Below the pieces are notes generated by a model. The model made no database searches and was not told the DNA's origin. It was given only the letters and a program-made list of their open reading frames with translations. This document shows positions 4,650-57,751 of a stretch of 64,000 nucleotides of DNA, piece by piece. Every line of letters starts with the position of its first letter. Within the stretch, counting starts at the first letter, position 1. A program made the translations under genes and the position numbers. The DNA is taken from NCBI GenBank assembly GCA_020632445.1, contig JACKFN010000004.1:4952-68951 (forward strand), read 5' to 3'. Source of the DNA: Candidatus Nomurabacteria bacterium. GTDB lineage: Bacteria > Patescibacteriota > Patescibacteriia > Magasanikbacterales > UBA922.

Positions 4650-4678
4650 TTGACAAAACAGACAAAATGTGATATATT
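4650..4678 (+). promoter_or_regulatory. sigma70-type promoter for the high-GC cassette 4771..5853 (TTGACA - 17 nt - TATATT with TGTG extended -10)
   Basis: ttgacaaaacagacaaaatgtgatatatt. It is near-identical in architecture to the promoter at 34786. Confidence 0.5.
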
Positions 4679-4770
4679 TTTGCGTTAGCTTTTTGGCTGT
4701 GTTATGCGTTTATTTTGGAAAGATTCTGGGATAAACGCATTTCGCAGCATGGAGCTGCAAGGAGGACGAG

Positions 4771-5853
4771 ATGAACAGGCAGATCTGGCTCATGGTGGGC
4801 CTGATGCTGGTCGGTTGTGGGCAGGACATGGGCAGCGGCCATCAGGTCGACGAGACGCCCCCGGGTCTGGACAAGGCGGAGCAGGTCTACACCGAGCTGA
4901 CGGGCAAGACCGTCGGCCACCGCTGGCCCACGGTCGAGGAGATCGAGTACAGGCCTCAGGGGCCGAGGGAGCCCGAGCACCTCCTTCTGGAGGTGCAGCT
5001 GGACGAGAACTTCGAGTACGTCCAGGCGGACAACCTCGGCGTCGTACTGATCGACATGACGGCGAGCAAGGTCCCCACGTCCGCCTACCTGGCCTTCGTG
5101 CTGGCCCGCGATCGGTTCGTACACGAGGCCAAGCGCCAGATCGAGAACTGGAAGGGGGCGAGTCCCGAGCAGTGCTGGGAGGAGTTCCAGCGTGATCGGG
5201 AGAAGCTGCAGGCCCGCGGCGCGTGCCGGTACTTCTGCACCGGCGGGTGCGAGCTGGAGCAGATCGTCAAGGATCGTGAAAAGGCCGTCGAGGACGCGGG
5301 CTACGCCCCGTGGTCGGTGGATGCCTACTGGGAACTGCACGATGCCTACGTCAGCGCGGAGATCTTCACGCCTCTGCCGGGATGGTTCGTTGTGGGCGAG
5401 GATCCCGAGCGAACGCGTCAGGTGATGGCGCTCACGACCGAGTGGGAGCGTCGCTGCATCGAGTGGCAACTCGATCGTGGTGTCGTCAAGAGCCTCGCGC
5501 TCCTGTCGACCATGGCCAAGTACCGACGCTGGGCGCTCGAAGAGTTCGGACCCGAGCTGCGCTCCGAGCTGTTCAAGCGGTGGAGCGAGAGGACGTACGT
5601 TTCCGATGAGGAGATGTCCTGTGATCCCACGGCTCCGCACGCTGACGTGCGGTTCATGATGTCCTGGGAGGTCGCCTATGAGCTCGAGGAGCGTCAGGTC
5701 AGGGACTGGACCTGCGTGAACTTCTTCGAGCGCGAGGTGCAGGCTGACGTGTGCGGCATGCCGGTGCACTCGAGCTACGACTTCATGGATGAGCAGGTCA
5801 CGCAACAGAACCTGATTCACCTGTTCCCGTTCGAGGAACACCAGGACCTGTAG
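4771..5853 (+). CDS. high-GC (about 65%) putative lipoprotein of unknown function (compositionally foreign cassette)
   Basis: AGGAGG Shine-Dalgarno 6 nt before the ATG. Signal peptide with lipobox LVGCG. GC content far above the flanking DNA. The antisense ORF 4702..5841 is a high-GC artefact. Confidence 0.6.
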   Translation: MNRQIWLMVGLMLVGCGQDMGSGHQVDETPPGLDKAEQVYTELTGKTVGHRWPTVEEIEYRPQGPREPEHLLLEVQLDENFEYVQADNLGVVLIDMTASKVPTSAYLAFVLARDRFVHEAKRQIENWKGASPEQCWEEFQRDREKLQARGACRYFCTGGCELEQIVKDREKAVEDAGYAPWSVDAYWELHDAYVSAEIFTPLPGWFVVGEDPERTRQVMALTTEWERRCIEWQLDRGVVKSLALLSTMAKYRRWALEEFGPELRSELFKRWSERTYVSDEEMSCDPTAPHADVRFMMSWEVAYELEERQVRDWTCVNFFEREVQADVCGMPVHSSYDFMDEQVTQQNLIHLFPFEEHQDL

Positions 5854-5952
5854 TCACCACGGTCCGATCCACCCACCAACATACCCCACCCCCGGCGCGT
5901 TCCCACCACGCGCCAACCCCAATTATAGTTTTCATCTTGGAAGTTATTGAGG

Positions 5953-5985
5953 GAAAAGCACAGACATTGATCTGTGCTTTTTTTA
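5953..5985 (+). terminator. rho-independent terminator
   Basis: aaagcacagacattgatctgtgcttttttt: hairpin followed by a T-run. Confidence 0.6.
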
Positions 5986-6014
5986 TTGTATAATACATGC
6001 ACACATACAAAACT

Positions 6015-6479
6015 ATGACCATTGAATCAGCAAAAAATTACGAAAATCGCGTCGAGCGACAAGCAGAACACCGCGAATCCAAAGAAGGAGAAAAAGATCC
6101 CGAGCTTCAAGCTGCCGCGGCTATGGAGCGTGCCGAGCTTTTGGCAAAGGAAGTGAAAAATAGCAAAAAGCAGATGCAAAATATTGCGATCAATGTAGCC
6201 AATGTCAAAAATACTATTGCACAGCTGCGCGCCCAGCTCCAACTTGCTGCTAGTGACGATGATCCTCAATCAGTGCAGCAAGACAAGCAAGCACTCGAGG
6301 CGCTCAAAAAGAAAATTGCTCTTCATCAAGACGAGCTTATGAAAATGCGAGGAGATTTGATAAAACAACAAATGGAAGTGCTCAGTGAAGGAGGAACAGA
6401 CATGACACCTTCACAGCTCCAAGAACTGGCACAAAGACAGGTTGATGCGCTTATTGGCTCAGCGCATGATGATGAGTAA
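6015..6479 (+). CDS. hypothetical coiled-coil protein
   Basis: A TATAAT box sits just upstream. The product is a Glu/Lys/Gln-rich helical protein. Confidence 0.45.
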   Translation: MTIESAKNYENRVERQAEHRESKEGEKDPELQAAAAMERAELLAKEVKNSKKQMQNIAINVANVKNTIAQLRAQLQLAASDDDPQSVQQDKQALEALKKKIALHQDELMKMRGDLIKQQMEVLSEGGTDMTPSQLQELAQRQVDALIGSAHDDE

Positions 6480-6604
6480 AAATTGTGGTATACTAGGAAG
6501 GTAAAAATCGTTGCATTGCTACATGGTGAACATCTAGCAAATTTTTACGTATATACGTAGAATATAAAACCATTTGACCACATGGCAATGGAGCAATTAT
6601 TGGT

Positions 6605-14843: not shown

Positions 14844-14861
14844 TTTCTTTGGATTATTACT

Positions 14862-15704: not shown

Positions 15705-15705
15705 T

Positions 15706-16437: not shown

Positions 16438-16527
16438 GCCTGATTTTAGGTAAAGACATGGGATTCTTGACAAATTCGAGGCACCATGTCACTATATACC
16501 GTTATCTATCTAAACTTATGAAAGGGG

Positions 16528-18486: not shown

Positions 18487-18496
18487 AAAAGATTGT

Positions 18497-23575: not shown

Positions 23576-23646
23576 AGGGATAGGTTAAGCTTTATATAAA
23601 TAGTATTTCAAAAAACAGGGAAGATTTCAAGCCAGGGTGGTGCTGG

Positions 23647-24270
23647 CTATTCGGTGTGGGTGTACAGGTGTGGCCACACGGCATAGCGGAGGTCAGCGTT
23701 TGTCTCCACCTCCATCTGAGCAGATAGAAAGACGGTTCGGTGGTCTGGGGGGAGTACACGCCTTATGCTCACCAGTGGTGAGCGTAGATAAGCGATAGGT
23801 TCTTCGATGACATTTCGTCCTCCGTTGGACGCATGGATCGCTGTGCCTTTCTCGGTCAGAAGTACCACATGTCCTACGGGGGGATCGACATGAGTCCAGC
23901 TGTGGTATCCCAGGGTGAAACCAAGATCGCCATCCTGAAATGGTTCGCCGTTTTTCAGCGCTTGGCCTTGCTGGCTTTGCTCTGCGCTAAAGCGAGGGAG
24001 CCAGACACCCATCTGGCTGTAAATCCACTTTACAAAACTCGAGCAGTCCACGAGCTCAGGGGCAAGGGAAGCACTGACATGCTTTACGTATTGACTCTGG
24101 CCGATTTGACCGCGTGCCATCTCGACGGGGTCGATTCGCTGCCAGGCGCATCCAATAGCCCCCAATGCCTCGTAGATCTGCCTGTCACTGAACTGTTTCC
24201 AGAAGTCGATATTTCGGTCGATCAGACATCGTCCTGCGCGAGCGTGAAAAAGCATAATTCCCCTGCGCAA
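23647..24270 (-). CDS. NlpC/P60 (C40) family peptidase, GC-elevated (about 55%)
   Basis: Catalytic Cys context DCSSFVKWIY plus downstream His (HVVLL). GC is clearly above the flanks. Lies between tRNA-His and tRNA-Arg. Confidence 0.6.
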   Translation of the reverse strand: MRRGIMLFHARAGRCLIDRNIDFWKQFSDRQIYEALGAIGCAWQRIDPVEMARGQIGQSQYVKHVSASLAPELVDCSSFVKWIYSQMGVWLPRFSAEQSQQGQALKNGEPFQDGDLGFTLGYHSWTHVDPPVGHVVLLTEKGTAIHASNGGRNVIEEPIAYLRSPLVSIRRVLPPDHRTVFLSAQMEVETNADLRYAVWPHLYTHTE

Positions 24271-24390
24271 TCGTGTTCCCCCAAAGGAGAAAGATGGTTG
24301 AGAGTTTGTTTTGCTTCGGCACTATTGAAGCAGAAACTCAGCAGGAAGTCAATGCAGAAAAAAAACAGCGTATTTTTGTGCTGTTTTTTA

Positions 24391-34848: not shown

Positions 34849-35637
34849 ATGGGAATCTCGGTCACGATCAATAAGGGGAAGCATTCCCATCCGATTCCGG
34901 ATGGGGCCAAGGAACTCCTCGAGGAGTTCTTCGGGAGCGCCGGACTCGAGGGTGAGATTACCGTCCAGCAGGGGGCGGCGGTCAAGGGCACTGCCCACCT
35001 GCAGGGCTTGACTAATGTCTCCATTAAGGGGATCAGTGGTCGGTACGTGATCGTCCGGGTTCAGCCCGGCAACAACACCACTGGTCGTGAGTACCAGGTG
35101 GTGACCCCCAATAACCTCTCGCCGCAACTTCTGTTTCGACTGCTCAAGTCCACAGCCCAAGAGCTCAAGGAAGGTGGCAGCAACGGGACAGTTGTCGGTT
35201 TCGATGATCTGCAGGACCAGGAATCGCAGATTCTGCGGCAGATTCAGGAGTGCGATGATGAACTCAATGCCCTGACCGAGAAGATCGGGCAGCTGAAGGA
35301 GTTTGTTGAAGCGGATCGCTTGCCTCTGAGTCGGCTCGAGCAGAAGATCGAGCAGGTCAGACAGCAGATCACGGCGCTGCAGGAGGCCTTGGAAGGTCAC
35401 CGACGCGAGCGCAATGGACTCGAGGAGAAGTTCTCCAAGTCCCAAAGTGATCTAGCAATCGCGCAGCATGACTACGAGGAGGCCGTGCAGAAGAGAGATG
35501 CCTTGCTGGAACGGCAACATGCTCTGCAGCAACTGCGGGCTGACAGGATAGTCGAGATCGTGCTCGATGCGGCGCATAACCAGAGTGTCGATCCGAATGT
35601 TGTTCACGCCCGACTCGGAGATCTGATTCGGGACTGA
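34849..35637 (+). CDS. high-GC (about 60%) hypothetical protein with a C-terminal coiled coil (foreign cassette)
   Basis: AGGAGGtatcATG start. A coiled-coil heptad region (residues about 130-240) spelled entirely in GC-rich codons. Confidence 0.55.
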   Translation: MGISVTINKGKHSHPIPDGAKELLEEFFGSAGLEGEITVQQGAAVKGTAHLQGLTNVSIKGISGRYVIVRVQPGNNTTGREYQVVTPNNLSPQLLFRLLKSTAQELKEGGSNGTVVGFDDLQDQESQILRQIQECDDELNALTEKIGQLKEFVEADRLPLSRLEQKIEQVRQQITALQEALEGHRRERNGLEEKFSKSQSDLAIAQHDYEEAVQKRDALLERQHALQQLRADRIVEIVLDAAHNQSVDPNVVHARLGDLIRD

Positions 35638-35691
35638 GCTTTTTCCCACAAATGACCCACCACTCGATTTCCCATCGCTCGAGAAATTCCC

Positions 35692-35725: not shown

Positions 35726-35754
35726 TTGACAAGTCAAAAGGAATGTGGTATTTT
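35726..35754 (+). promoter_or_regulatory. sigma70-type promoter (TTGACA - 17 nt - TATTTT, TGTG extended -10)
   Basis: ttgacaagtcaaaaggaatgtggtatttt. Confidence 0.4.
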
Positions 35755-35849
35755 CAAATGTCAAATTTTTGGCAACATACAGAGAAATTTTCTTTGTATA
35801 ATGCCCAAAAGGCAGAGACAATTTTTCTATCGGCAACAGAGGGAAAACA

Positions 35850-37109
35850 TTGGGAAGAGAGCATCGTACTGGTAAGCGTAGGGGAGGCGTTCGGCACGCA
35901 CATAAGGCGCGTGCTGTCGTGCGGGCGAACTGGAACAGTCAGGTCGCGGCGCTCAGGGCCGCATACAAGTCCGGCGAGGTCGTGACCGCCGGTGATCTTG
36001 CCAAGCGATGCCCGGGGGCGTTCGAAAACGCCTACAGGGCAGGCGAGTTCCTGGTTCGGGCTCGTCAGCATGGACTGGTGGTCCAGGATGGAAAGCGGGT
36101 GCGTCTTGTCGGCGACGATGCTGGGTCAATGACTCAGGCCGGTGACGAGGACATCGGCACAATCACCAGGATCGGTGACATGGACATCATGGTCCGCACC
36201 TTCTTCGAGAGCAGGACCCCCGCTACGGCGGTTCAGTCCTTTGACCACAGGAGTCTTCAGAAAGAGGGTGGTGTTCTCGGTGGGTACACCTGGGGCGCAC
36301 TCGGGATGTTGTGCCGAGTGCTCAGCGATCGACAGCTCATCGAGCATCCGGTGGTGGAAGGCTTCTTCGGGAGAGGAAGTCGATGGGTGCTCAGTGAGGC
36401 TGGTCTTACGCATCTTCGTGAGATTCAACCCGGTCTTCTTCCAGAGCCTGAGCCTGAGCAGCAGGAACACATGGCTTCAGCCACGGTTGAGCTGGAGGAG
36501 GTCGAGGCCGCGCCAAGCGTGCCGGAGCCAGAGTCTGTCGCCGAGCCGGAACCAACCGTCGAGGTCGACACTCGTCCGGAGCCCCTCAAGCCACGCAGCA
36601 TCGATATGCGTCGATTCCGCCATGATCGCATCGTGCGCGAGCGGGTGCGTCAGGGGCTCCAAGATGCACTCGATGCATCGGGTGGGCGAAGCTGGCTCAC
36701 GCTCGGCAGGGCAGAGATGCTCGGCTTGGGTGAGGCGCTTGCTGAGCTCGAGTTCCTCGGGTGGAACCTTGTACCTGCGGGGGTACGTTCCCGTGCCTTG
36801 GGCTACTTGGCAGAGGATGGTCATATCGTGCGTCAGCGCCGAAGTGGCGTCTACGTCTACAGCCTGAAGGGGTACGAGCCTACGGCTAAGGTCGCGGCCT
36901 CTGCTGTTCCCGACAGAGCACTCGAACCCATCAAGTCCACAGCGGTCAAGTCTGGTGCTGTGTGCAAGCCTAAGCGTACACGACCTGCTGCGACTCCTGC
37001 AGTCGCTCAGCAGCAGGCAACTGAGCCAGACCTCGCAACGATCCTCCTGAACCTGTTCAGCCTGATGGCGGAGATCCCCGACGATCGTCTTCAGGTTCAC
37101 ATCAGCTGA
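35850..37109 (+). CDS. high-GC (about 65%) hypothetical protein with two winged-helix-like modules joined by an acidic Pro/Glu linker (foreign cassette)
   Basis: The frame opens at a TTG after GGGAAA, so the true start is uncertain. EPEPEQQE…PEPESVAEPEPTVE linker. Overlapping alternative-frame ORFs 36142..36867 and 36477..37157 are GC artefacts. Confidence 0.45.
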   Translation: MGREHRTGKRRGGVRHAHKARAVVRANWNSQVAALRAAYKSGEVVTAGDLAKRCPGAFENAYRAGEFLVRARQHGLVVQDGKRVRLVGDDAGSMTQAGDEDIGTITRIGDMDIMVRTFFESRTPATAVQSFDHRSLQKEGGVLGGYTWGALGMLCRVLSDRQLIEHPVVEGFFGRGSRWVLSEAGLTHLREIQPGLLPEPEPEQQEHMASATVELEEVEAAPSVPEPESVAEPEPTVEVDTRPEPLKPRSIDMRRFRHDRIVRERVRQGLQDALDASGGRSWLTLGRAEMLGLGEALAELEFLGWNLVPAGVRSRALGYLAEDGHIVRQRRSGVYVYSLKGYEPTAKVAASAVPDRALEPIKSTAVKSGAVCKPKRTRPAATPAVAQQQATEPDLATILLNLFSLMAEIPDDRLQVHIS

Positions 37110-37240
37110 CTTACCGACACCCCACCTCCGGTCGCACACCCACACGACCAACCCCAAAAAAGCATCTGCAAAAGGTGTTTTTTTGTTTGCAAAAATATAC
37201 CTACTATGTTTAAATCATTTTGGAAACGAGAGGAGTGCAC

Positions 37241-37843
37241 ATGCTGTATCCAACGGGTAGAATGCTTGAGATCCTCTTGAGGGAACTCTATTTACAGGTA
37301 CAAGGGCATATTCCGGGGTCAGTGACGGTAGAGCAGGCGCAGCAGGCTACCTGTTTGATGAGGCTCTATAGCTGCACCGTTATAGCAGATGTGTTCGCCT
37401 TGGCTGTGAGGCATGAGTTGCTTGTAGAGCAAACGCCTGAGCTTTATCTGTGGACCACAAAAGCAAAACAGGCGCTACGCGATTTTGAGCAGTTGAAGTC
37501 CAAGAGAGAAACAAAGAAGTCCGAGCCAAGAAGGGGAAGGCCGGCCATGCGACTTCCAAAAGGCTTTTTGCGAAGTCCAACCTTCGAGCTCGTTGCTGTT
37601 GAAACGGTCATTTTCCTCTTGGAGGATCCATTGGATCCTGGACAGTCTGTGGAGTACGGTGTACTGATTACCCGAATGGCGCAAGAGTTCGGATTTCAGC
37701 GTGACCTGGTCGTCGCCTCCTTTGGGAAAGGACTCTTTGACCTCGCTCGAAGGGGTGTATTGGTTCTGCTGGAGAACCCTACAAAGTGTTACTCTCTGAC
37801 AGATGATGTTCGTAAAGTAGTTGCCGCGCACGCTTGCCTTTAG
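37241..37843 (+). CDS. GC-elevated (about 55%) hypothetical protein (foreign cassette)
   Basis: GAGAGGAGtgcacATG start. Followed by the C-rich tail cctacccaccttcc. Confidence 0.5.
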   Translation: MLYPTGRMLEILLRELYLQVQGHIPGSVTVEQAQQATCLMRLYSCTVIADVFALAVRHELLVEQTPELYLWTTKAKQALRDFEQLKSKRETKKSEPRRGRPAMRLPKGFLRSPTFELVAVETVIFLLEDPLDPGQSVEYGVLITRMAQEFGFQRDLVVASFGKGLFDLARRGVLVLLENPTKCYSLTDDVRKVVAAHACL

Positions 37844-37914
37844 TTTCCTACCCACCTTCCAATTCAGTATTTTGACAGAAATCGTATTTTGAGAGAAAAT
37901 ACTCGCAGAAATAT

Positions 37915-41846: not shown

Positions 41847-41859
41847 GCACTGTCAGATC

Positions 41860-41900
41860 AAAGGTCTTAGGCAAGGTAAAAAGCCTTGCCTAAGACCTTT
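41860..41900 (+). promoter_or_regulatory. perfect 17-bp stem / 7-nt loop hairpin in the 5' UTR of cassette 41916..42512 (operator or attenuator candidate)
   Basis: aaaggtcttaggcaagg taaaaag ccttgcctaagaccttt, ending 1 nt before the GAGAGGAG Shine-Dalgarno. Confidence 0.5.
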
Positions 41901-41915
41901 GAGAGGAGTGAGAAG

Positions 41916-42512
41916 GTGATAGAAAAGCTGTATACAGCTCGCCGTGTAGCCTTCCACGCGCGGAATGGCTTTACTCAGCGTCAACAAGAGATGCTCGTGC
42001 GGGATGGCTGTGAGCTCCACACGATCAAAGGCGGTCACCAGTTCGTGGTGATGCGCTACGACGTGGGTGAGTACACGGGTCTCCCAGTGTACGAGTTCAT
42101 GAAGGAAATGTCGGATCAAAAGGATGCTTTTTTTTCCGTTCACGTTTTGCCTGTAGAGCTTGATGGGTGGAACCAAGTGGCGGTCATCCCGGCGGGGAGT
42201 GACTACTATGCGTTTCATCTAACTACCATTCGATGGGTGCGGGGAACATACGTGTGCATCCATTTGGGCATCTGTGGAAAAAGTGGTGTGATCGTCCTCA
42301 ACTTGCATCAGCTCGAGCGAGTAGAGCAGATGCAGAAGGTAGAAGGGTTGTCTTTTGACGGGACGATCTATAGAGTTGCTACGCGACACATGCATTTTCC
42401 CGGATTCCGTGAGTTGTCCGAAGATCAACCGGACATGGGAGCCGCAGTGCTTGGATCGCTCAGTGATAGGATCGGTTCGGTACGCGCTCACGAACTGCTC
42501 GTCACTCGCTAA
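41916..42512 (+). CDS. high-GC (about 58%) hypothetical protein (foreign cassette)
   Basis: GTG start 7 nt after GAGAGGAG; no recognisable domain. Confidence 0.5.
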   Translation: MIEKLYTARRVAFHARNGFTQRQQEMLVRDGCELHTIKGGHQFVVMRYDVGEYTGLPVYEFMKEMSDQKDAFFSVHVLPVELDGWNQVAVIPAGSDYYAFHLTTIRWVRGTYVCIHLGICGKSGVIVLNLHQLERVEQMQKVEGLSFDGTIYRVATRHMHFPGFRELSEDQPDMGAAVLGSLSDRIGSVRAHELLVTR

Positions 42513-42686
42513 CAGAATCCCACCAAAAAAGGTAGTCAAAACCCTGCCACAAAGCTACCCTTCAAAAAAATTCCAAAAGTGTATATAATAGCGGTGTTAT
42601 TTGCTGATTGCATCAGAAAAACTGATGCAGCCAGGAAACCACACCAGCGACCGGGGGTCGCACTTGCGCCAGAGGAGGGCGCAACT

Positions 42687-42905
42687 ATGAAGAGGCATTT
42701 CCTGCAGCAGTCGGATCCCAACGGCGACAAGGACCCGCGTACACACGCCAAGCGTGCGTGGGTGGGGCTGACCAACGCCGGTGTTCCCGGTGTTCCCCTC
42801 GACTTCGCGAGCAACCTGCCCCTCGCCATGCACGAGGCGACGGTCGCGGGGCTGCTCACGCCGCGTGTCTTCCACAAGGGCGTGAGCCAGACCGCCAGCT
42901 TCTAG
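42687..42905 (+). CDS. small high-GC (about 65%) hypothetical protein, 72 aa (foreign cassette)
   Basis: Perfect TATAAT at 42584-42589, an 8-bp hairpin at 42609-42629, GAGGAGG 7 nt before the ATG. C-rich tail after the stop. Confidence 0.4.
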   Translation: MKRHFLQQSDPNGDKDPRTHAKRAWVGLTNAGVPGVPLDFASNLPLAMHEATVAGLLTPRVFHKGVSQTASF

Positions 42906-42960
42906 GCCTCCACACAACTCCCCCCTCGCGCCGCCGCGAGAACCCGCCTAGCGCCTCGAC

Positions 42961-43509
42961 TCACCTCGAGGCTTCTCCAACTCCAATGGTTTTTAAAATC
43001 GTATCCACGTGCACGTCATAGGCTTTGCTTGCAGGCAATAGGTGGTACGGTACTTGGTTTTTGAGAAAGAGATGGGCAATGAGTCTATCCATCATATCCC
43101 GGAATTCTTTATCAGTGCTGCGAATTCCATCAGCTTTCGCCTCGATCGAAAGTTTTTTTGTTTTAAAAACATAGTCATAGCTTGCCATATGCTCTGCTGC
43201 TGCGCGCTCAAAGTGCGAGATATCGAGCGGGCTGGTGATTCGGTACATGTAGGCAAAATTATCAAGTGCAGAGCGGTCGGTGATAAACACTTTATCGCTG
43301 TGGTCTATCTCAGTTTCTCGAGAAATTTGGTTGAGCAGAATCCATTTTTGCGCATCGAGAGTCGTCTGCTCATTGATAGGCATTGGGCACACCCTTGCCA
43401 GCTCCTCAAGGACGACAACGTGTTTTCCATGCGTTTCCAGTGCGGCCTGTAGGTGCGTGATGATAGATGTTTTTCCAGTGGAGTGGGTACCAATGATAGC
43501 GATTTTCAT
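42961..43509 (-). CDS. P-loop NTPase (AAA_28 / NadR-like small kinase family)
   Basis: MKIAIIGTHSTGKTS Walker A and DRS…; a GC-neutral native gene. Confidence 0.5.
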   Translation of the reverse strand: MKIAIIGTHSTGKTSIITHLQAALETHGKHVVVLEELARVCPMPINEQTTLDAQKWILLNQISRETEIDHSDKVFITDRSALDNFAYMYRITSPLDISHFERAAAEHMASYDYVFKTKKLSIEAKADGIRSTDKEFRDMMDRLIAHLFLKNQVPYHLLPASKAYDVHVDTILKTIGVGEASR

Positions 43510-51821: not shown

Positions 51822-51853
51822 AAAAAAAGCTTCTCGAAAGAGAAGCTTTTTTG
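51822..51853 (+). terminator. rho-independent terminator of rpsA
   Basis: aaaaaaagcttctcgaaagagaagcttttttg. Confidence 0.65.
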
Positions 51854-51918
51854 TTATTTGGATTGACAAAAAGGGGGTAATCATGTAAAAAGGTGAGGCG
51901 TGGCACGAGGAGGTGAAA

Positions 51919-53151
51919 GTGGACGCGAAAATGTACTGGAGCCTGGACCCCGACAACTGGGGCATGCAGCAGAAGATCGGTTACGTCCCGGTCGATGATC
52001 CGGATGCGGCGATGGCTGAGATCATGGTGTGGAACGTCCCCTACATGCGGGGCAAGATCACCATGGACAACAAGGGTTACTTCTACATCTACATTCATAG
52101 TCGGCTCCGGTGGTTCCGTGTTGGGCATGGTATCTTCGTGCTCTACCGGATGATCTGCCACATGCTCGATACCCACGCGCGGGAGATGCCGACGATTAAG
52201 CAGATCAGAAAGGCCCTTGACGGTCTGGACGTGGACTTTCAGGTCCTCGAGCCGCCGCAGACCGACCGTTTCGGTCAAGGCACGTACATTCGTGGTGTAC
52301 TTAGTGCACATCTGAGTGAGCTCGCGCGAGCAGTTGACTGCGACAAGGTCGAGGCACGCAAGTTGATCGTGCACATGCTCGGCGTGCATGGACTCGGCGA
52401 GGGACAGGAACTCAAGACGGTCGTCCTCACTTGCTTGAGCGAAGACGCACGGGAGTCGCTTCTCGATCGGCTCAGCAGCATCAGCTCCATGCATCCGCAT
52501 CTGTGCTACTATCGTGCGCAGGTGCGCCAGATGATCCTGCTGCTTGAGGATCTTCTGGATCAGGGAGTCGCAGCCGCCCAGTCCCTGATCCGCTACCTTG
52601 ATCCCAGCGCCGGACAGCCCGCCAACATCTTGGAGACCAAGATCAACGCAGTCGGTCGTTGGGTTTCAATGATGCGGATCAAGCCCTACTCGCATATCCC
52701 GGGGTACGCTGTCAGTGAGCTCGAGGAGCTCAGGCAGTTGGCTCGTGTCACTGGGAAGCAGGAAGAAGCTCTCGCGCTTGCGCGTCGAATCCACTCGGGG
52801 CTGTTGATCATGAAGATGCGTCGCAGTCTTGCGCTCTCGGCGATGCACGTCGACCATGGCAACAAGGCACTGAAGACGAAGGATGTGCGAGCCTCCAGCA
52901 AGCCGATGCGCCAGTCGCTTCTCAGGCGGATCATCGCATCCTTGGAGAGTACCTCCAGACAGTGTGCTCAAATCGATGAGACCGGCTTCTCCAACCCAGT
53001 GTGCGACCAGATTCGTGCCAATTTGTTGCAGGTGCTTTCACACCTGAAGCAGATTCTGTCACTACTGGAAACTGACGGTGATAGGGAGGAGATGGGGAGT
53101 CATTTCTCCATCGCCGCGGCGCACCTCAAGAATACGGCTCAGCTCATCTAG
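51919..53151 (+). CDS. high-GC (about 60%) hypothetical protein, about 410 aa (foreign cassette)
   Basis: Promoter TTGACA (51863)-17-TAAAAA. GAGGAGG 5 nt before the GTG at 51919. C-rich tail cccacctctgc…caccccaccggccgcc. Confidence 0.5.
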   Translation: MDAKMYWSLDPDNWGMQQKIGYVPVDDPDAAMAEIMVWNVPYMRGKITMDNKGYFYIYIHSRLRWFRVGHGIFVLYRMICHMLDTHAREMPTIKQIRKALDGLDVDFQVLEPPQTDRFGQGTYIRGVLSAHLSELARAVDCDKVEARKLIVHMLGVHGLGEGQELKTVVLTCLSEDARESLLDRLSSISSMHPHLCYYRAQVRQMILLLEDLLDQGVAAAQSLIRYLDPSAGQPANILETKINAVGRWVSMMRIKPYSHIPGYAVSELEELRQLARVTGKQEEALALARRIHSGLLIMKMRRSLALSAMHVDHGNKALKTKDVRASSKPMRQSLLRRIIASLESTSRQCAQIDETGFSNPVCDQIRANLLQVLSHLKQILSLLETDGDREEMGSHFSIAAAHLKNTAQLI

Positions 53152-53359
53152 CAAGCATTTCAGTCGATCCCACCTCTGCACAGCGGTCACCCCACCGGCC
53201 GCCAGAAGATTCCCTTGACTTTTGTGAAAAAAAAGTGTAATGTATTGCAGAAGCTTTTTCGCTTTTTTTGTTTTAAAATAATGGAACAAAGAAAGCGACG
53301 AAGCTGCGAGCATGGGCTCAAAGCGGGGATCGCGCGACTCAATGGGGAGAAGAGAGAAG

Positions 53360-53590
53360 ATGGAAGCAACGAGCGAGGCTCAGGTGCACTTCGGTCTGGA
53401 TCGCAGCACGGGGCGTCAGGTGGCGGTCCAGGGCGCCACCGGTCGTCAGGCGCCCAAGCTCACCGACAAGATCCCGGGCACCGACAAGGCCTCGGGCATC
53501 GACAAGATCAACCCGGTCCAGAACCACGGCTTCGCGACCAGCCTCGGCGACCTGTTCGGCCCCCAGCTCAGGGGCGTTCACACCTCCTGA
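53360..53590 (+). CDS. small high-GC hypothetical protein, 76 aa, with internal repeats (TGRQVAVQGATGRQAPK / PGTDKASGIDKINP)
   Basis: Promoter TTGACT (53215)-17-TAATGT. Purine-rich Shine-Dalgarno GGGGAGAAGAGAGAAG before the ATG. C-rich tail gcacccgccaccaccc. Confidence 0.35.
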   Translation: MEATSEAQVHFGLDRSTGRQVAVQGATGRQAPKLTDKIPGTDKASGIDKINPVQNHGFATSLGDLFGPQLRGVHTS

Positions 53591-53774
53591 TCCTGGCTGG
53601 ACTCGTTCCAGCACCCGCCACCACCCATGAGCGCAGCGCTCGTCTCGCCAACCAGGCCTGCACCACCGCGGGCCTGTCACATACATCTATAGAAGCATAC
53701 AAACATTTGAACATATAAACATGGTGCCGATAGGGCATTTTTTGTTTTTCAAAAAAGATTTTCTGTGTTATGCT

Positions 53775-54569
53775 ATGGGTAATGTAATTATACTCTCTAT
53801 GGCAACAAGACATTGGAAAGAATATCTTACTCGACTCGGTTTTTCGGACAATGAAGCCTCGTTATATCTTACTTCTCTCAAAGAGGGGCAGCTTTCTGTC
53901 CAAGAGCTTTCACGCAAGACCAAGCTCTCTCGTGTGACTGTGTATGCGGTTTTGGAATCACTGATGAAGCGAGGGTTAATTTCTACCGTCCAAAAAGGAA
54001 AAAAGAATTACTATGCAGCAGAACCACCAGAAAGATTGTTTACGGTGGCAAGTCAAGAAATTGGAAAACTTGAAGTCATGGTTGAGGAGATGAAACAAAA
54101 TGTCTCAGAACTTCGAGCGATTCAAAGTGGTGATAAACCAGTGGTAAAAATGTTTGAGGGAGAGGAAGCCATGCTTATCTTTCAAGAAAAGCTTTTGAGC
54201 GCACCGGTCAAAGAATTCTATGAGTTTGGAAATATCGATGCCATACGAAATGCACCGATTCTTGGTGAAGTAGCATCGGATTTTTTTGAAAGAATGGATA
54301 AAAAGAAAATTGTTCGTTATGGCATGTTTTCTTCAAAGGAAAAAGACCCTATTAGTAAAAGTGATTTTGAAAAGGTAAAGAAACTGGAAAACATTGATGA
54401 ATATTCGGGAAATGTTTCGGTGTTTGGAGACGAAGTCATTATTTCTGGTATGAGTGGAAAGTTTATTTCTGTATATATTCAAAACAAAGAAATTGCCGAC
54501 ACCGTAAGAGCTCTACTACGAAAGCTTTGGAAGGAAACTCCAGAGAAAGAGATTAAAAAAACACCTTAA
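53775..54569 (+). CDS. TrmB-family transcriptional regulator
   Basis: N-terminal wHTH LSVQELSRKTKLSRVTVYAVLESLMKRGLIS and a C-terminal TrmB-like sensor region. Confidence 0.6.
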   Translation: MGNVIILSMATRHWKEYLTRLGFSDNEASLYLTSLKEGQLSVQELSRKTKLSRVTVYAVLESLMKRGLISTVQKGKKNYYAAEPPERLFTVASQEIGKLEVMVEEMKQNVSELRAIQSGDKPVVKMFEGEEAMLIFQEKLLSAPVKEFYEFGNIDAIRNAPILGEVASDFFERMDKKKIVRYGMFSSKEKDPISKSDFEKVKKLENIDEYSGNVSVFGDEVIISGMSGKFISVYIQNKEIADTVRALLRKLWKETPEKEIKKTP

Positions 54570-54600
54570 GGGAGTTTCATTAGCAAAAGAATTTTTTTCA

Positions 54601-54624
54601 GGGGCCATGGACATGGCCCCTTTT
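54601..54624 (+). terminator. rho-independent terminator
   Basis: ggggccatggacatggcccctttt. Confidence 0.6.
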
Positions 54625-55130
54625 AGGTGGGGCGGTGGTCGTTTGGCGTTAGGGCTTGGGCGGCCCTCGCGCCTGGTATTGGATGTTCAGGGTCGTCTCC
54701 TCATTCGAGCGTCAGGGACGCCCGACAAGTTGCGCGCGAGAATTCGATCTCACGCGCCTTGTTGTCGTTAGCGGCCGGAGCCCATGGGAACCTCCAGGTG
54801 TGCTGCTCGGGGCAGCTCCCGGTGGGTCATGCCTCCCTGTCTTTTCGGTTTCCTTCACCACTGTTTTTGATCTGCAGGTCTGTCTTGCACAAACAGACTC
54901 TTCCGTGGCAGGAGATGCCAGGGTTACCACAGATCGTGGACTTGGGTTCAGGAATAGTGTCCTCAGTTGTTCAAAGCGGCTTGGAGCAGCCTCGTGTATG
55001 AGGACTCTTACCTTAGGAAGGCCTCAGGCTAGGTGCCGACTTGATTTTTCGGCTTCCTTGCCTAGCTTGACCCAATTGTCGTGCCGAGACTATCACGGGC
55101 CTGCTCGATGGCAGTCTTGGGCACGCAAGT
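54625..55130 (+). other. GC-rich (about 60%) non-coding block; no convincing ORF in any frame
   Basis: Stops interrupt all six frames. The composition matches the foreign cassettes. It could be a structured RNA or a decayed cassette. Confidence 0.3.
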
Positions 55131-55612
55131 GTGTGTTGGCCCGTAACAGGAGTAATATATCACAAAATACAATATTTGTCAAGTGCTACTATACACAATG
55201 CGGGCATGTGCATTCATAGAGAAAAAAAGTGCTTTTTTCGAAACATAGCTCATGTGAGAAGTCCATTATGTATAGAACTCCTTATCATTTTAGTTGTGTA
55301 AATTTAGGTAAAAAAATAAGTTATCCACAAAAAATGAATAACTACTCTTGACAAGCAAATAAATACATGATAAAACAATAAGGTAGTCAAAAAAGTAAAT
55401 TGATTCTTTACAAACAATCACCACGAACCCAAGGGGGTTTTAGCTAGGCTCCTTTGGCATATAGCGTTTCGTGGTGGTTGGGTTATATGTCAAAGAGTCG
55501 AGCAAAGTCCCTCTAAATAAGGGGCTTTTTGCTTTGCCTGATTTCGCATCAGGAAGTTCCCAATGTTTTGAAAGTTTTAAGATATCGGGAACCATCACCA
55601 TGGAGGGACACA

Positions 55613-55714
55613 GTGAAGTACGAGCTGAGCGTCATCATGACGCCGGTCGTGTTTACGCTGGTGCACCTGGCGCTCATCGCCGGGTTCTGCGCCAGTCTGA
55701 CCGGCCGCATCTGA
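55613..55714 (+). CDS. possible small hydrophobic peptide (33 aa, single TM), high GC
   Basis: GGAGGG 5 nt before the GTG. Product VKYELSVIMTPVVFTLVHLALIAGFCASLTGRI. An overlapping Arg-rich frame exists, so this is speculative. Confidence 0.2.
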   Translation: MKYELSVIMTPVVFTLVHLALIAGFCASLTGRI

Positions 55715-55739
55715 TCGAGACACCCCCCGTCCGATAACC

Positions 55740-56140
55740 AACCTTCAATAATACTGGGTCAACCAGTCTCCTCTTGCATATAATTGCAGCTACTGGCGTT
55801 GCTTCCAGCAGGAAGCGACCCGGGTGCTCGAGGTGTGACCGCCGCTGTCCAACCTTTGTTCAGGCTCCCGCCATTGCCTGAACCATTCCCCAATGCCTCT
55901 TAATTGAGAAGTATTGGGGAGTAACTTCTAGGAGAATGCTTCCCGCCCGATCGGGCTACCCATTGAGATGGTCCCTAGGTTCAAAATTCCTTGCCTCGGC
56001 AAGACTACCTCCTAGGCCTGACGCATAAGCAGCGTGAATGGTAGTGCGCTGCGCCCACCCTGGCTCGATTCCCCATCGAGCCCCTTGATTGCCTCTTTCT
56101 GTTTTCAGGAAGTGGCTCAAAGGAATAATTTTTCATAACA
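55740..56140 (+). other. GC-rich non-coding region dense in nested hairpins (candidate structured RNA)
   Basis: TGTTCAGGC…GCCTGAACA, CCCCAAT…ATTGGGG, GCCCGATCGGGC, TTGCCTCGGCAAG, GGCTCGAT…ATCGAGCC. Confidence 0.3.
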
Positions 56141-56143
56141 CCC

Positions 56144-56193
56144 ATGCTTGTCACGTTTTCTCTTCACTCTGGGCCCTATGGCTCAGCGATGAA
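56144..56193 (+). repeat. repeat R1 (50 bp), a copy of the leader/start region of the cassette at 57124
   Basis: atgcttgtcacgttttctcttcactctgggccctatggctcagcgatgaa matches 57079-57128 with 3 mismatches. Here the ATG is followed by an early stop (atgaatag). Confidence 0.7.
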
Positions 56194-56296
56194 TAGAAAA
56201 TGGTATGTTTTTACTTCCTAAAATGATTGGGGAGTTAGTTGGAGATCTCTCAGTGTGCCAAATATGACATAGTGAGGGATTAACCAAGGAGCTCCC

Positions 56297-56977
56297 ATGA
56301 ACGAGTATGAGCGAGTCATTCAGGCCGGTGCGGTGGCGACGATCGTCGACTCTCACGAGTCTGACGGCGTCAATGACGTCGTGGTGCGAGTGGCCAATGG
56401 TCATGGGAGCGTGCTGTTGCTCATGTTGCTCAGCGGCACCGGTGTGGTGTGCACACAGCGCATTATAGCCGATGAGCTGGCGCACCAGCGTGAGCGGATC
56501 CTCAGTCGTGGGATCCACGCTGGCAATGCCAGTGTGAGGATCATCGACCTGGCAGAGTTTCGTCGGCGCTTCCCATCAAAGCCGTGTACGGTGCGGGAAG
56601 GGATCGAGGCTCACAGGCATCGCCTGTACGAGTATGCCGATCTGCGGCGCGAGCGGGGTGGCTCGGACTGGCGAGGTGAGATGCCGCTGACGGTCGACCC
56701 TGCGGTCAAAGAGCTGCTCGCTGAAAACCCGTATCTCACGGGAATAATCGTGAGAGGGGTTTACGCCAAGCGCGGTGGTGCCGGGTATTCGGTGCGACTT
56801 GGCTTCGGCAAGGCGGTCAAGTTCTGGGAGGAACATTCGAGTTCGTGTTCGGGGTTGCCTGTCAGCGTGAGTGTTGAACTCGTCGATGATGAGCCTCACC
56901 CGAGCTGGATCTTGTCGCCTGCGCAGGCTAACGTGTTGCGTTGGTACCTTGCGGTGACAGACGAGTGTTGCTCCTGA
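56297..56977 (+). CDS. high-GC (about 62%) hypothetical protein, 226 aa (cassette J)
   Basis: GGAG Shine-Dalgarno and an ATG at 56297. Its N-terminal motif AGAVATIVDSHESDGVNDVVVRVANG resembles the C-terminus of cassette K. Confidence 0.5.
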   Translation: MNEYERVIQAGAVATIVDSHESDGVNDVVVRVANGHGSVLLLMLLSGTGVVCTQRIIADELAHQRERILSRGIHAGNASVRIIDLAEFRRRFPSKPCTVREGIEAHRHRLYEYADLRRERGGSDWRGEMPLTVDPAVKELLAENPYLTGIIVRGVYAKRGGAGYSVRLGFGKAVKFWEEHSSSCSGLPVSVSVELVDDEPHPSWILSPAQANVLRWYLAVTDECCS

Positions 56978-57010
56978 CGCAGTTACTCTGCCTACCAAAT
57001 ACGCCTACCT

Positions 57011-57037
57011 CAATCACCACATTCAAACAAAGTTTTT
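57011..57037 (+). repeat. trailer repeat T1 after cassette J
   Basis: caatcaccacattcaaacaaagttttt; a copy lies at 57517-57543 after cassette K. Confidence 0.65.
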
Positions 57038-57078
57038 GTCGTGACAAATATTTTGTTGGACTTGTTTCACCAGCATCT

Positions 57079-57128
57079 ATGCTTGTCACGTTTTCTTTTC
57101 ACTCTGGGCCCTGTGGCTCAGCGATGAA
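57079..57128 (+). repeat. repeat R2 (leader plus start codon of cassette K)
   Basis: See R1. Confidence 0.7.
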
Positions 57129-57507
57129 CGGAAAACGGAAAATTGCGATGGTTATCATTCGTTTTGTTCGAGGGTCTGAGACTCGTGACATGGCCGTGGA
57201 CTTGGTAACCCGTGATGAGGCACGGGAGATTCTGGTCACCGGCCACAAGGCTGGCTTTGACTGGAAGATCGAGTATCGGCTAGCGAGCGAGATTGAGGCA
57301 CACCTGTGGATGGCCGCAGATTTTACCGCGCGGATCCTTCGTGCTCTGATGCGTGGGCTCCCTGTGAGGTTTGACGGCGTAACCTGGTTTCGGCTCGATC
57401 AGGCGGGCGAGATCGAAGACGTGATCGTCAATTCTGGTGCCGTCGTCACCATCGAATCAGACGATGATAATGGCTTGGTTATTATCAGAGCAGGACAGAT
57501 CCACTGA
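57124..57507 (+). CDS. GC-elevated hypothetical protein, 127 aa (cassette K)
   Basis: The ATG lies inside repeat R2. Its C-terminus SGAVVTIESDDDNGLVIIRAGQ resembles J's N-terminal motif. Confidence 0.45.
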   Translation: MNGKRKIAMVIIRFVRGSETRDMAVDLVTRDEAREILVTGHKAGFDWKIEYRLASEIEAHLWMAADFTARILRALMRGLPVRFDGVTWFRLDQAGEIEDVIVNSGAVVTIESDDDNGLVIIRAGQIH

Positions 57508-57516
57508 TCCCACCTC

Positions 57517-57543
57517 CAATCACCACACTCAAACAAAGTTTTT
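57517..57543 (+). repeat. trailer repeat T2 after cassette K
   Basis: caatcaccacactcaaacaaagttttt. Confidence 0.65.
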
Positions 57544-57751
57544 AAAGCGTGAAGTTGAAGATTTTGTTTGAAGGTTATAAGTATGTTTTTCACCAAAAAA
57601 GAACTCAAAAATTTGGATCAGGAGCAGCTCTACGAAGTTCGTGAAGCCTACTTGACACATATGAAAAATCCACAGGCATCAAAGTTTCAGTTTTTGCAGC
57701 GCAAACCAGTTCTTGCTGACATGTCGCTTGTTGATGATATGATTTTGCAGT

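What the first reader, a model, noticed from the sequence alone, without database searches (positions are those of the whole stretch)
4650..57545. Genome-wide mosaic of single-gene, high-GC cassettes spliced into an AT-rich chromosome, all on the + strand
At least 11 protein-coding units are 55-65% GC while the surrounding native genes are about 40% GC. They start at about 4771, 34849, 35850, 37241, 41916, 42687, 51919, 53360, 55613, 56297 and 57124; in addition, 54625-56140 is GC-rich non-coding DNA. The composition switches at gene boundaries, not within genes. Each cassette has its own AT-rich sigma70-like promoter and usually a strong Shine-Dalgarno. Every one is co-oriented on the + strand regardless of its neighbours' orientation. 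None has a domain I can recognise. Several look like small wHTH, coiled-coil or lipoprotein proteins, the kind of content expected of accessory, defence or effector cargo rather than housekeeping genes. Ordinary horizontal transfer from an actinobacterial-type donor would not usually deliver single ORFs each with a host-optimised promoter and Shine-Dalgarno. This points to a systematic acquisition or expression mechanism, or to an engineered or synthetic origin. The polarity and the shared flanking signals are the novel part.
Basis: seen in the sequence. Interest (0 to 1): 0.85.

Follow-up and report, generated by a model that had tools for sequence, protein, structure and literature searches.

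The report
GC-rich orphan gene islets in Patescibacteria
A tiny-genome (Patescibacteria) bacterium carries about a dozen real, separately transcribed GC-rich genes of unknown function wedged between its AT-rich housekeeping genes. They are most likely horizontally acquired accessory genes, not an engineered or strand-polarised cassette system.

Summary
The GC-rich islands are real. A two-state HMM finds 10 segments (12.6% of the window, 56-68% GC against 42.7%), and their edges lie within about 85 nt of start and stop codons. Codon usage and dinucleotide signature are clearly non-native. Short-read assemblies from two runs reproduce 12 of the 13 units at 100% identity, so this is not a chimera.

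- **Strand.** The units are not all on the + strand. An NlpC/P60 gene (23647-24270) and a structured RNA unit (54601-55143) are on the - strand, and the strand bias matches that of native genes (P=0.18).
- **Non-coding block.** 54625-56140 is two structured-RNA-like units (fold z about -7), not one block.
- **Domains and donor.** One cassette has a known domain. Another (51913-53151) belongs to a family whose only named members are Patescibacteria, which argues against an actinobacterial donor.
- **Engineering.** No integron, phage, plasmid or vector signature was found.

My best reading is moron-like single-gene islets drawn from a GC-richer, largely unsampled gene pool.

Two things remain unexplained. 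A CCCACC motif follows the stop codon or 3' end in 9 of 14 units (1.9 expected). The 51913 family is also GC-elevated in relatives. Interest is moderate.

The parts
4650..5990 (+). Unit 1. Promoter-like site 4650-4678, 5'UTR hairpin, AGGAGG, ORF 4771-5853 (360 aa, predicted lipoprotein signal ...LVGC), C-rich tail with three CCCACC copies (5872, 5885, 5902), terminator hairpin about 5950-5985.
   Evidence: GC 0.641 and GC3 0.875. HMM segment 4743-5920. Promoter 11/12 plus TG. Only a self-hit among 5.8e9 proteins. No Pfam, PHROG, PADLOC, NCBIfam or PDB hit. The lipoprotein signal is my reading of the sequence.
23631..24340 (-). It has a C-rich tail (CACCACCC) after the stop.
   Evidence: GC 0.546 and GC3 0.587. 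Pfam PF00877 E=1.6e-11. Only a self-hit in the word-indexed search. Junctions reproduced in L172 and L173 at 100%.
34849..35690 (+). Unit: 262-aa protein with a C-terminal coiled coil, CCCACC 19 nt after the stop, then a terminator hairpin.
   Evidence: GC3 0.669. Only generic coiled-coil hits. NCBI H6758_03030, singleton cluster. Covered by L001 at 100%.
35726..37165 (+). Unit: promoter-like site 35726-35754, ORF 35850-37109 (419 aa; NCBI aa), Ala/Arg/Gly-rich, C-rich tail with CCCACCTCC.
   Evidence: GC 0.617; GC1/2/3 = 0.707/0.488/0.655. Only a self-hit. Promoter 10/12 plus TG. No relative in IMG/VR.
37241..37865 (+). Unit: 200-aa ORF, mildly GC-rich, CCCACC 8 nt after the stop.
   Evidence: GC 0.508 and GC3 0.543. 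No family hits. Its dinucleotide signature is closer to native.
41859..42530 (+). Unit: 18-bp perfect 5'UTR hairpin (about 41859-41901), Shine-Dalgarno, ORF 41916-42512 (198 aa), CCCACC 7 nt after the stop.
   Evidence: GC 0.525 and GC3 0.598. Sequence. It lies in the IleRS|M17-peptidase slot, which holds different GC-rich genes in relative L163.
42561..42972 (+). Unit: promoter-like site 42561-42589, ORF 42687-42905 (72 aa), C-rich tail.
   Evidence: HMM segment 42627-42972 at GC 0.679. GC3 0.725 for the longer 42579-42905 ORF call. Promoter 10/12.
51892..53203 (+). Unit: ORF 51913/51964-53151 (412/395 aa), a member of a family whose only named members are Patescibacteria. Small N-terminal beta domain plus long helical bundle. 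Tail has two CCCACC copies.
53295..53674 (+). Unit: 76-aa ORF 53360-53590 with its own TTGACT...TAATGT promoter-like site at about 53215-53243.
   Evidence: HMM segment at GC 0.671. GC3 0.839 for the longer 53312-53590 ORF call. Sequence.
54590..55182 (-). Structured-RNA-like unit on the - strand: promoter 55182->55154, about 540 nt with no ORF longer than 72 aa, CCCCACC just before a terminator hairpin at 54600-54625.
   Evidence: Promoter 11/12 plus TG, the best in the region. Fold z=-7.0 on the - strand against -2.4 on the + strand. ORF list. No Rfam family.
55613..56140 (+). 33-aa hydrophobic ORF (55613-55714) followed by about 430 nt of hairpin-rich GC-rich RNA-like sequence.
   Evidence: HMM segment 55586-56084. 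Fold z=-6.9 on the + strand against -2.7 on the - strand. No Rfam family.
56139..57037 (+). Unit: shared 5' leader (repeat D4, 56139-56203), ORF 56297-56977 (226 aa), shared 3' tail (repeat D8, 57011-57037).
   Evidence: GC 0.602 and GC3 0.70. Repeats D4 and D8. Covered by L174 and L175 at 100%.
57074..57543 (+). Unit: second copy of D4 (57074-57138), ORF 57124-57507 (127 aa; not similar to the 226-aa protein), second copy of D8 (57517-57543) preceded by CCCACCTCC.
   Evidence: D4 is 96% identical over 50 nt and D8 96% over 27 nt. No protein similarity between the two ORFs.

Best explanation
The window is chromosomal DNA of an uncultured Patescibacteria (CPR) bacterium. Its AT-rich housekeeping operons are interrupted by about 11 small, independently transcribed GC-rich accessory genes and two structured non-coding RNA genes.

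The protein-coding units are best explained as horizontally acquired or recombinationally exchanged single-gene islets. They resemble phage 'morons' in architecture but sit in a cellular chromosome. They appear to come from a GC-richer and largely unsampled gene pool that includes Patescibacteria-specific families. They landed in intergenic gaps, and the copies retained are those oriented with the local operon and replication direction. Each is expressed from an AT-rich sigma-70-type promoter and ends in a C-rich 3' tail followed by an intrinsic terminator.

Their content points to fast-evolving surface, host-interaction or regulatory accessory functions. It includes a lipoprotein, an NlpC/P60 cell-wall hydrolase, a coiled-coil protein, a helical-bundle protein and small proteins.

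Shown: composition, boundaries, reality of the junctions, orphan status, and membership of one unit in a family with Patescibacteria members. Inferred: transfer itself, the donor pool, activity of the promoters, and function.
For: - Sharp GC-rich segments coincide with gene bodies.
- Codon usage is non-native with no overlap. Dinucleotide signature is non-native: delta* 130 against 27.6 +/- 9.3. Coding units generally resemble each other more than they resemble native DNA.
- Flanks are housekeeping genes: SSB, S6, RpiB, TK, IleRS, M17 peptidase, GyrA, S1 and FtsH.
- The IleRS...M17-peptidase slot is conserved in relative L163 but holds different GC-rich genes there. One of them is a homologue of the 51913 protein, which in the window lies 10 kb away.
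- 51913-family members span a wide range of GC-linked amino-acid composition (GARP/FYMINK 0.59-2.21). One sits on a 58.5% GC contig, so GC-rich donors of this family plausibly exist.
- Proteins at 4771, 35850 and the NlpC/P60 unit return only themselves among 5.8e9 proteins. All cassette clusters at 90% identity contain only this genome.
- Moron definition: own promoter and terminator, and GC unlike the neighbours (PMC3594210).
Against: - No donor was identified for any unit. Two large proteins have no relatives at all.
- Acquired genes are usually AT-richer than their host genome, not GC-richer (established knowledge).
- The AT-rich promoter, 5'UTR and terminator around each GC-rich body are not what a simple fragment insertion from a GC-rich donor would give.
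- The 51913 family is also the highest-GC3 gene of its neighbourhood in L166, L167 and L171, and lies in conserved synteny in L166, L167 and L169. That fits a persistent gene-specific force better than recent transfer.
- The CCCACC tail shared by non-homologous units, including the RNA units, is unexplained by independent transfers unless the donors share it.
- Promoters and terminators are consensus matches only.
Confidence: 0.55

Rival explanations
1. In-situ, gene-specific GC enrichment. The units are native, fast-evolving accessory genes. Their transcribed bodies are driven GC-rich by a persistent local force. Candidates are GC-biased gene conversion in frequently recombining slots, selection on mRNA composition or stability, or a targeted mutational process. 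The promoters and terminators stay AT-rich.
For: - Composition changes just inside the promoter/terminator frame.
- The 51913 family is vertically placed (UvrC-X-UvrA) in L166, L167 and L169, yet has the top GC3 of its neighbourhood in L166 and L167.
- Its closest homologue, in L163, is also strongly GC-elevated (GC3 0.69 against 0.27-0.29) although the proteins share only 32% identity. A shared ancient transfer should have ameliorated by then.
- The 4771 gene has extreme GC3 (0.875) but near-native GC2 (0.39).
Against: - No known bacterial mechanism gives +0.3 to +0.5 GC3 in selected genes.
- The dinucleotide signature also differs.
- The 35850 gene shows GC1/GC2 typical of a very GC-rich genome with lagging GC3, the pattern expected for amelioration of a foreign gene.
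- GC3 elevation in L169 and L170 is weak or absent.
- 5'UTRs of up to 80 nt inside the transcripts remain AT-rich.
Confidence: 0.2
2. A dedicated cassette or regulon system. The shared C-rich CCCACC 3' tag, and the D4/D8 flanks of the last two units, mark units that are either inserted or exchanged by one recombination or retro-insertion mechanism, or co-regulated by one RNA-binding or termination factor such as Rho.
For: - CCCACC occurs in 9 of 14 tails of 50 nt, against 1.9 +/- 1.2 in composition-preserving shuffles. It is the top hexamer in an unbiased test (P<0.001). CCACC occurs in 11 of 14.
- Of the 13 + strand CCCACC sites in 64 kb, 10 lie within 55 nt after a cassette stop codon and an eleventh lies at the 3' end of the 55.7-kb RNA unit.
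- Native gene tails are not C-rich: 19% C against 41%.
- Two non-homologous ORFs share 96%-identical 5' and 3' flanks.
Against: - No integrase or attC-like structure, no target-site duplications, and no reverse transcriptase in the window.
- The motif was chosen after inspection, and I picked the RNA-unit tails by eye. Without them it is 7 of 12.
- The motif is mostly absent after homologous or GC-rich genes in other genomes: 2 of 11.
- C-rich, G-poor 3' regions could simply be Rho-utilisation-like sequence inherited from the donors.
Confidence: 0.1
3. Genes captured from a GC-rich host or prey organism (actinobacterial-type) or from its phages.
For: GC3 up to 0.875 and Ala/Arg/Gly-rich proteins. 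The units share a dinucleotide signature.
Against: - No homologue of the 4771, 35850 or NlpC/P60 proteins in 5.8e9 proteins, which include heavily sampled GC-rich bacteria.
- The only family found has named members only in Patescibacteria.
- No hits in phage, IMG/VR or plasmid collections, or in the viral fold library.
Confidence: 0.08
4. Artefact or engineering: chimeric assembly or binning, polishing error, or synthetic inserts.
For: None beyond the unusual composition. The 4771 island junctions were not covered by an independent contig that I could retrieve.
Against: - Independent short-read contigs from two runs match 22524-24665, 34291-42801 and 52501-59099 at 100% across native/GC-rich junctions.
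- Reading frames are intact with coding periodicity.
- One protein folds confidently and has natural homologues.
- No similarity to plasmids or phages.
Confidence: 0.02

Closest known systems
Phage 'morons' (Hendrix/Juhala concept; reviewed in PMC3594210)
   Same: A single gene inserted between conserved neighbours. It has its own promoter and terminator, GC content unlike the flanks, and accessory function.
   Different: Morons are defined in phage and prophage genomes. Here the backbone is a cellular chromosome of housekeeping genes with no phage genes. The units are GC-richer by 10-20 points and share a CCCACC 3' tail.
Horizontally transferred genes and genomic islands of Patescibacteria (PMC12455944)
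   Same: The same phylum. That paper reports many individually transferred genes, mostly exchanged within Patescibacteria, making up to 13% of genome length. Here about 12.6-15% of the window is compositionally atypical.
   Different: The density of single-gene units is high, and most are orphans. No donor was identified. One family is GC-elevated even where it is syntenic in relatives.
Integron gene cassettes
   Same: Short, mostly single-ORF units that are co-oriented, unrelated in content, and carry a recurrent 3' signal.
   Different: There is no IntI, attI or attC. The units are scattered rather than in an array, and each has its own promoter-like site.
GC-rich structured ncRNA genes in AT-rich genomes (the basis of GC-content/intergenic-region screens for new RNAs)
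   Same: The two non-coding units (54590-55150 on the - strand; 55715-56140 on the + strand) are GC-rich and strongly structured. The first has its own promoter and terminator.
   Different: They match no Rfam family. No homologues were found, so there is no covariation support.

Membership tests
Phage moron | [quoted passage not shown] | tested here: met
   HMM segments at 55.7-67.9% GC against 42.7%. GC3 0.54-0.875 against 0.27-0.47.
Phage moron | Own promoter and terminator (an independent transcription unit) | tested here: inconclusive
   Consensus promoter-like sites before units 4771, 35850, 42687 and the - strand RNA unit in the scans; others seen by eye. Terminator hairpins by eye and by scan. 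No transcript data.
Phage moron | An addition relative to related genomes at a conserved position | tested here: inconclusive
   The IleRS...M17 slot is conserved in L163 with different GC-rich content. No close relative (IleRS identity at most 60%) was available for strict presence/absence.
Phage moron | Located in a phage or prophage genome | tested here: not met
   Flanks are SSB, S6, IleRS, TK, GyrA, S1, FtsH and similar genes. No phage genes. No PHROG hits.
Integron cassette array | IntI-type integrase with attI and Pc adjacent to the array | tested here: not met
   The only recombinase is a 316-aa Xer-like tyrosine recombinase at 24608-25558 (-), beside tRNA-Arg and far from 12 of the 13 units.
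Integron cassette array | attC imperfect inverted repeat at the 3' end of each cassette | tested here: not met
   No shared inverted repeats. The tails are C-rich and unpaired, followed by ordinary terminators.
tRNA/integrase-bounded genomic island | Integrase next to a tRNA gene, with direct repeats bounding the island | tested here: inconclusive
   The arrangement recombinase - tRNA-Arg - NlpC/P60 - Band_7 - tRNA-His exists for one unit only. No flanking direct repeats were found.
Horizontally acquired gene (general) | Atypical composition: GC, codon usage and oligonucleotide signature | tested here: met
Horizontally acquired gene (general) | Identifiable donor lineage or phylogenetic incongruence | tested here: inconclusive
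   Three units have no relatives. The 51913-family tree is star-like.
Known RNA families (Rfam 15) | Covariance-model match for 54590-55150 or 55715-56140 | tested here: not met
   No gathering-level hit in the window except two tRNAs. No credible hit at E<=10 in 54400-57700.
Engineered or synthetic insert | Similarity to vectors, markers or plasmid parts; absence from environmental reads | tested here: not met
   No plasmid or phage similarity. Present at 100% identity in assemblies of two sequencing runs.

The most novel reading that the evidence does not exclude
The GC-rich units are not a random collection of transfers. They are a coherent class of fast-evolving accessory transcription units in this Patescibacteria lineage. 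Under this reading their high GC is actively maintained in a gene-specific way, as the 51913 family in relatives hints. They also carry a common CCCACC-containing C-rich 3' tag shared by coding and non-coding members. That tag would imply a dedicated regulatory, termination or exchange mechanism not yet described.
Probability: 0.12. Interest if true: 0.7.

Novelty: new variant of a known kind. Interest (0 to 1): 0.4.

Why it matters
Patescibacteria have tiny genomes and live as symbionts or parasites. Their strain-specific accessory genes are the likeliest determinants of host interaction, and most are uncharacterised.

This window shows that such genes can be picked out by composition alone. 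They behave as autonomous expression units between core operons, and at least one belongs to a fold-confident family whose named members are all Patescibacteria.

If the shared 3' motif and the persistent GC elevation hold genome-wide, they would point to a specific way in which these organisms regulate or exchange accessory genes. If not, this is a clear but ordinary case of mosaic horizontal acquisition.

The two structured RNA candidates are independent leads for new ncRNA classes.

Tried and rejected
- **Known RNA in 54.6-56.1 kb.** I suspected rRNA, tmRNA or RNase P. Rfam (gathering and E<=10) and ARAGORN found only two tRNAs elsewhere.
- **Paralogy among cassettes.** All-against-all BLASTP gave nothing below E=0.05.
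- **Phage origin.** PHROGs gave only coiled-coil noise. There was no tblastn or blastn hit in INPHARED, no IMG/VR relative for two proteins and no viral fold match.
- **Defence systems.** PADLOC gave only coiled-coil noise.
- **Solved structures by sequence.** Nothing.
- **Structure of the 4771 protein without an alignment.** pLDDT 36.5, unusable.
- **Close relatives for presence/absence.** Genome and metagenome scans with IleRS reached only 60% identity or less.
- **Target-site duplications or att-like motifs at island edges.** None, apart from one 11-nt T-rich repeat.
- **RNA structure as a general property of the cassettes.** Coding units have z between -2.5 and +1, similar to the single native gene (SSB, z -2.1) that the run reached before timing out.
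- **Homologues of the two RNA units in 2.5 Mb of fetched loci.** None.
- **CCCACC as an anti-Shine-Dalgarno mimic pairing with each unit's own SD.** Inspection showed no consistent complementarity.


Full report
**What the window is.** The 4771 protein is identical to NCBI 'hypothetical protein H6758_02845 [Candidatus Nomurabacteria bacterium]' on a 124,315-bp MAG contig. The other units are H6758_03030 to H6758_03130. The nearest IleRS relatives in 185,579 species genomes and in JGI metagenomes are Magasanikbacteria/Patescibacteria at no more than 60% identity, so the lineage is poorly sampled.

Native genes are ordinary housekeeping and CPR-typical genes. They include a T2SSE ATPase, S6, SSB, an array of T4SS_pilin-domain proteins, MGDG synthase, a Xer-like recombinase, SpoU, RimK, PfkB, thioredoxin-reductase-like, RpiB, TK, IleRS, M17 peptidase, RuvA, GyrA, S1, a TrmB-like regulator and FtsH. 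Cumulative GC skew rises across the whole window. I infer from this that the + strand is the leading strand throughout.

- A two-state HMM finds 10 GC-rich segments totalling 8,080 bp (12.6%), at 55.7-67.9% GC against 42.7% for the rest. Adding the two milder units (37241 and 41916) gives about 15%.
- Segment edges fall 21-65 nt before start codons and 0-84 nt after stop codons.
- The + strand ORFs show the coding pattern of high GC1, low GC2 and highest GC3. Examples are 0.657/0.391/0.875 for 4771 and 0.605/0.380/0.738 for 51913.
- A CAI-like index built on native usage separates cassettes (0.52-0.64) from native genes (0.68-0.80) completely.
- The pooled dinucleotide signature differs from native DNA by delta*=130, against 27.6 +/- 9.3 for native subsets. 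Most coding units are closer to each other than to native DNA.

So the refuting outcome of 'native-like codon usage' did not occur.

**Is it an assembly artefact?** No. Logan short-read contigs from two runs (SRR12358675 and SRR12358676) are 100% identical, without gaps, to window 22524-24665, 34291-42801 and 52501-59099. They cross the native/GC-rich junctions of 12 of the 13 units. Only the 4771 island was not independently recovered.

- *Polarity.* A GC-rich NlpC/P60 gene lies on the - strand at 23647-24270 (GC3 0.587; Pfam E=1.6e-11). The 54.6-55.15 kb GC-rich stretch is driven by the best promoter match of the region on the - strand (55182->55154, TTGACA-17-TATATT with TG). All + strand units sit within + strand gene blocks. 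The count is 11 of 13 units on + against 38 of 55 native genes, which is not significant (P=0.18).
- *The 'non-coding GC-rich DNA'.* It is two distinct units. 54590-55150 folds far better than shuffles on the - strand (z=-7.0) than on the + strand (z=-2.4) and has no ORF longer than 72 aa on that strand. 55715-56140 folds with z=-6.9 on the + strand against -2.7 on the - strand and follows a 33-aa hydrophobic ORF. Coding cassettes are not unusually structured, with z between -2.5 and +1. These two are therefore best read as structured-RNA genes, for which GC-richness in an AT-rich genome is expected. They match no Rfam family, and I found no homologues.

**Context of the 51913 family.** In three MAGs (L166, L167, L169) the homologue lies in conserved UvrC-X-UvrA synteny.

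In L163 the synteny with the window runs from the IleRS C-terminus to the M17 peptidase. There the homologue lies in that slot, with GC3 0.69 against 0.27-0.29 in the flanks. In the window the same slot holds the unrelated units 41916 and 42687 instead. So a conserved intergenic slot carries different GC-rich genes in two relatives, which is evidence for exchange.

The family member also has the highest GC3 of its neighbourhood in L166 (0.405 against about 0.29), L167 (0.583 against about 0.46) and L171. This is not so in L169 or L170. That modest but recurrent offset, in syntenic positions, is not easily explained by recent transfer. It keeps an in-situ, gene-specific explanation alive.

Family members span GARP/FYMINK ratios of 0.59-2.21, and one lies on a 58.5% GC contig. 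GC-rich versions therefore exist elsewhere.

**Orphan status.** The 4771 protein, the 35850 protein and even the NlpC/P60 protein return only themselves among 5.8e9 proteins in the word-indexed search. All cassette clusters at 90% identity contain only this genome's copies. There are no Pfam, PHROG, PADLOC, NCBIfam or PDB sequence hits apart from coiled-coil noise for 34849. A conventional, well-sampled GC-rich donor such as Actinobacteria is therefore unlikely.

**Anatomy and shared signals.** Typical unit: sigma-70-like promoter (often TG-extended), a 5'UTR that may contain a perfect hairpin, AGGAGG-type SD, GC-rich ORF, a C-rich/G-poor tail, then an A-tract/hairpin/T-tract terminator.
- The tails are 41% C and 16% G, against 19% and 22% after native genes.
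- CCCACC occurs in 9 of 14 tails (50 nt), against 1.9 +/- 1.2 in shuffles of the same tails. In an unbiased enumeration it is the top hexamer (P<0.001), and CCACC is in 11 of 14.
- Of the 13 + strand CCCACC sites in the window, 10 lie within 55 nt after a cassette stop codon and an eleventh lies at the 3' end of the 55.7-kb RNA unit. Only one lies inside the roughly 8 kb of cassette coding sequence.
- The - strand RNA unit also ends ...CCGCCCCACC before its terminator.
- Caveats: I noticed the motif before testing it, and I chose the two RNA tails by eye. Without them it is 7 of 12. The motif is mostly absent downstream of homologous or GC-rich genes in other genomes, appearing in 2 of 11.
- I cannot assign it a function. 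A Rho-utilisation-like element, a binding site for a C-rich-RNA-binding factor, or a donor-pool signature are all possible. These are inferences.
- The last two units share a 50-65-nt 5' leader (96% identity over 50 nt) and a 27-nt 3' tail (96%) around non-homologous ORFs. This suggests local duplication of an expression frame, or exchange of its content.

**Mobile-element hallmarks.** I found no transposase, phage gene, integron integrase or reverse transcriptase among the ORFs scanned. The single Xer-like tyrosine recombinase (24608-25558, - strand) sits next to tRNA-Arg and the NlpC/P60 unit. There are no bounding direct repeats and no similarity to plasmids or phages.

**Conclusion.** The best-supported reading (about 0.55) is a dense set of moron-like, single-gene accessory islets acquired or exchanged from a GC-richer, mostly unsampled pool that includes Patescibacteria-specific families, plus two structured ncRNA genes. 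This fits published evidence that individually transferred genes are common in Patescibacteria and come mostly from other Patescibacteria (PMC12455944). It also fits the moron concept (PMC3594210), although the phage-genome criterion of that concept is not met.

The main rival (about 0.2) is persistent gene-specific GC enrichment of native fast-evolving genes. A dedicated tag-based cassette or regulon mechanism (about 0.1) is not excluded. A host-derived actinobacterial origin, chimerism and engineering are unlikely.

Interest is moderate. The mosaic is real and unusually dense, and it is GC-rich rather than AT-rich. However, the features that made it look extraordinary (strict polarity, synthetic origin) do not hold.

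Noticed in passing
window 11339-21446 (+): An array of at least 11 consecutive genes carrying the T4SS_pilin domain (PF18895). The 65-nt repeat family D1 (12437, 13255, 16261) marks their conserved C-terminal segment. This looks like a large paralogous pilin-like family typical of CPR genomes.
   Followed up: partly
window 24608-25558 (-), 24391-24465 (-), 22615-22689 (-): A Xer-like tyrosine recombinase (Phage_integrase plus SAM-like N-terminal domain) lies directly upstream of tRNA-Arg. It is followed by the GC-rich NlpC/P60 gene, a Band_7 gene and tRNA-His. The layout is island-like, but no bounding repeats were found.
   Followed up: partly
window 55613-55714 (+): A 33-aa strongly hydrophobic ORF (VKYELSVIMTPVVFTLVHLALIAGFCASLTGRI) with a GGAGG site. 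It sits just upstream of the 430-nt structured region and resembles a small membrane peptide or type I toxin. It is not present as a called protein in the 15-billion-protein collection.
   Followed up: no
window 53721-54569 (+): A TrmB-family winged-helix regulator with unusually low GC (0.377, GC3 0.329) is embedded in the middle of the GC-rich cluster at 51.9-57.5 kb. It converges on the - strand RNA unit and shares a bidirectional terminator hairpin with it (54600-54625).
   Followed up: no
window 51841-51851 and 53249-53259: The 11-nt string AGAAGCTTTTT, the 3' half of the S1 terminator, recurs just after the 51913 unit. It could be a remnant duplication from insertion into the terminator, or chance in T-rich sequence.
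   Followed up: no
window 41859-41901 and 4716-4752: Perfect 5'UTR hairpins lie immediately upstream of the Shine-Dalgarno of units 41916 (18-bp stem) and 4771 (10-bp stem). They may be stabilisers or translational switches.
   Followed up: no
window 60332-60456 (inside the - strand ORF 60181-60714): Four tandem 33-nt repeats (73-92% identity to the reference copy), that is 11-aa repeats, in a 177-aa protein with no Pfam hit.
   Followed up: no
L007 8701-9650 and 15451-16450; L093 7901-9000; L163 1009-3322: Other Patescibacteria loci fetched with IleRS also contain isolated GC-rich genes, 10-20 points above background, next to housekeeping genes. Most CPR loci scanned (27 of 35, excluding the two contigs from the window's own genome) show none. 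The phenomenon is therefore recurrent but patchy in the phylum.
   Followed up: partly
window 42961-43581 (-): An AAA_28 ATPase gene between the GC-rich units and the M17 peptidase has mildly raised GC3 (0.507). It is replaced by an unrelated 177-aa GC-rich gene at the same position in L163.
   Followed up: partly
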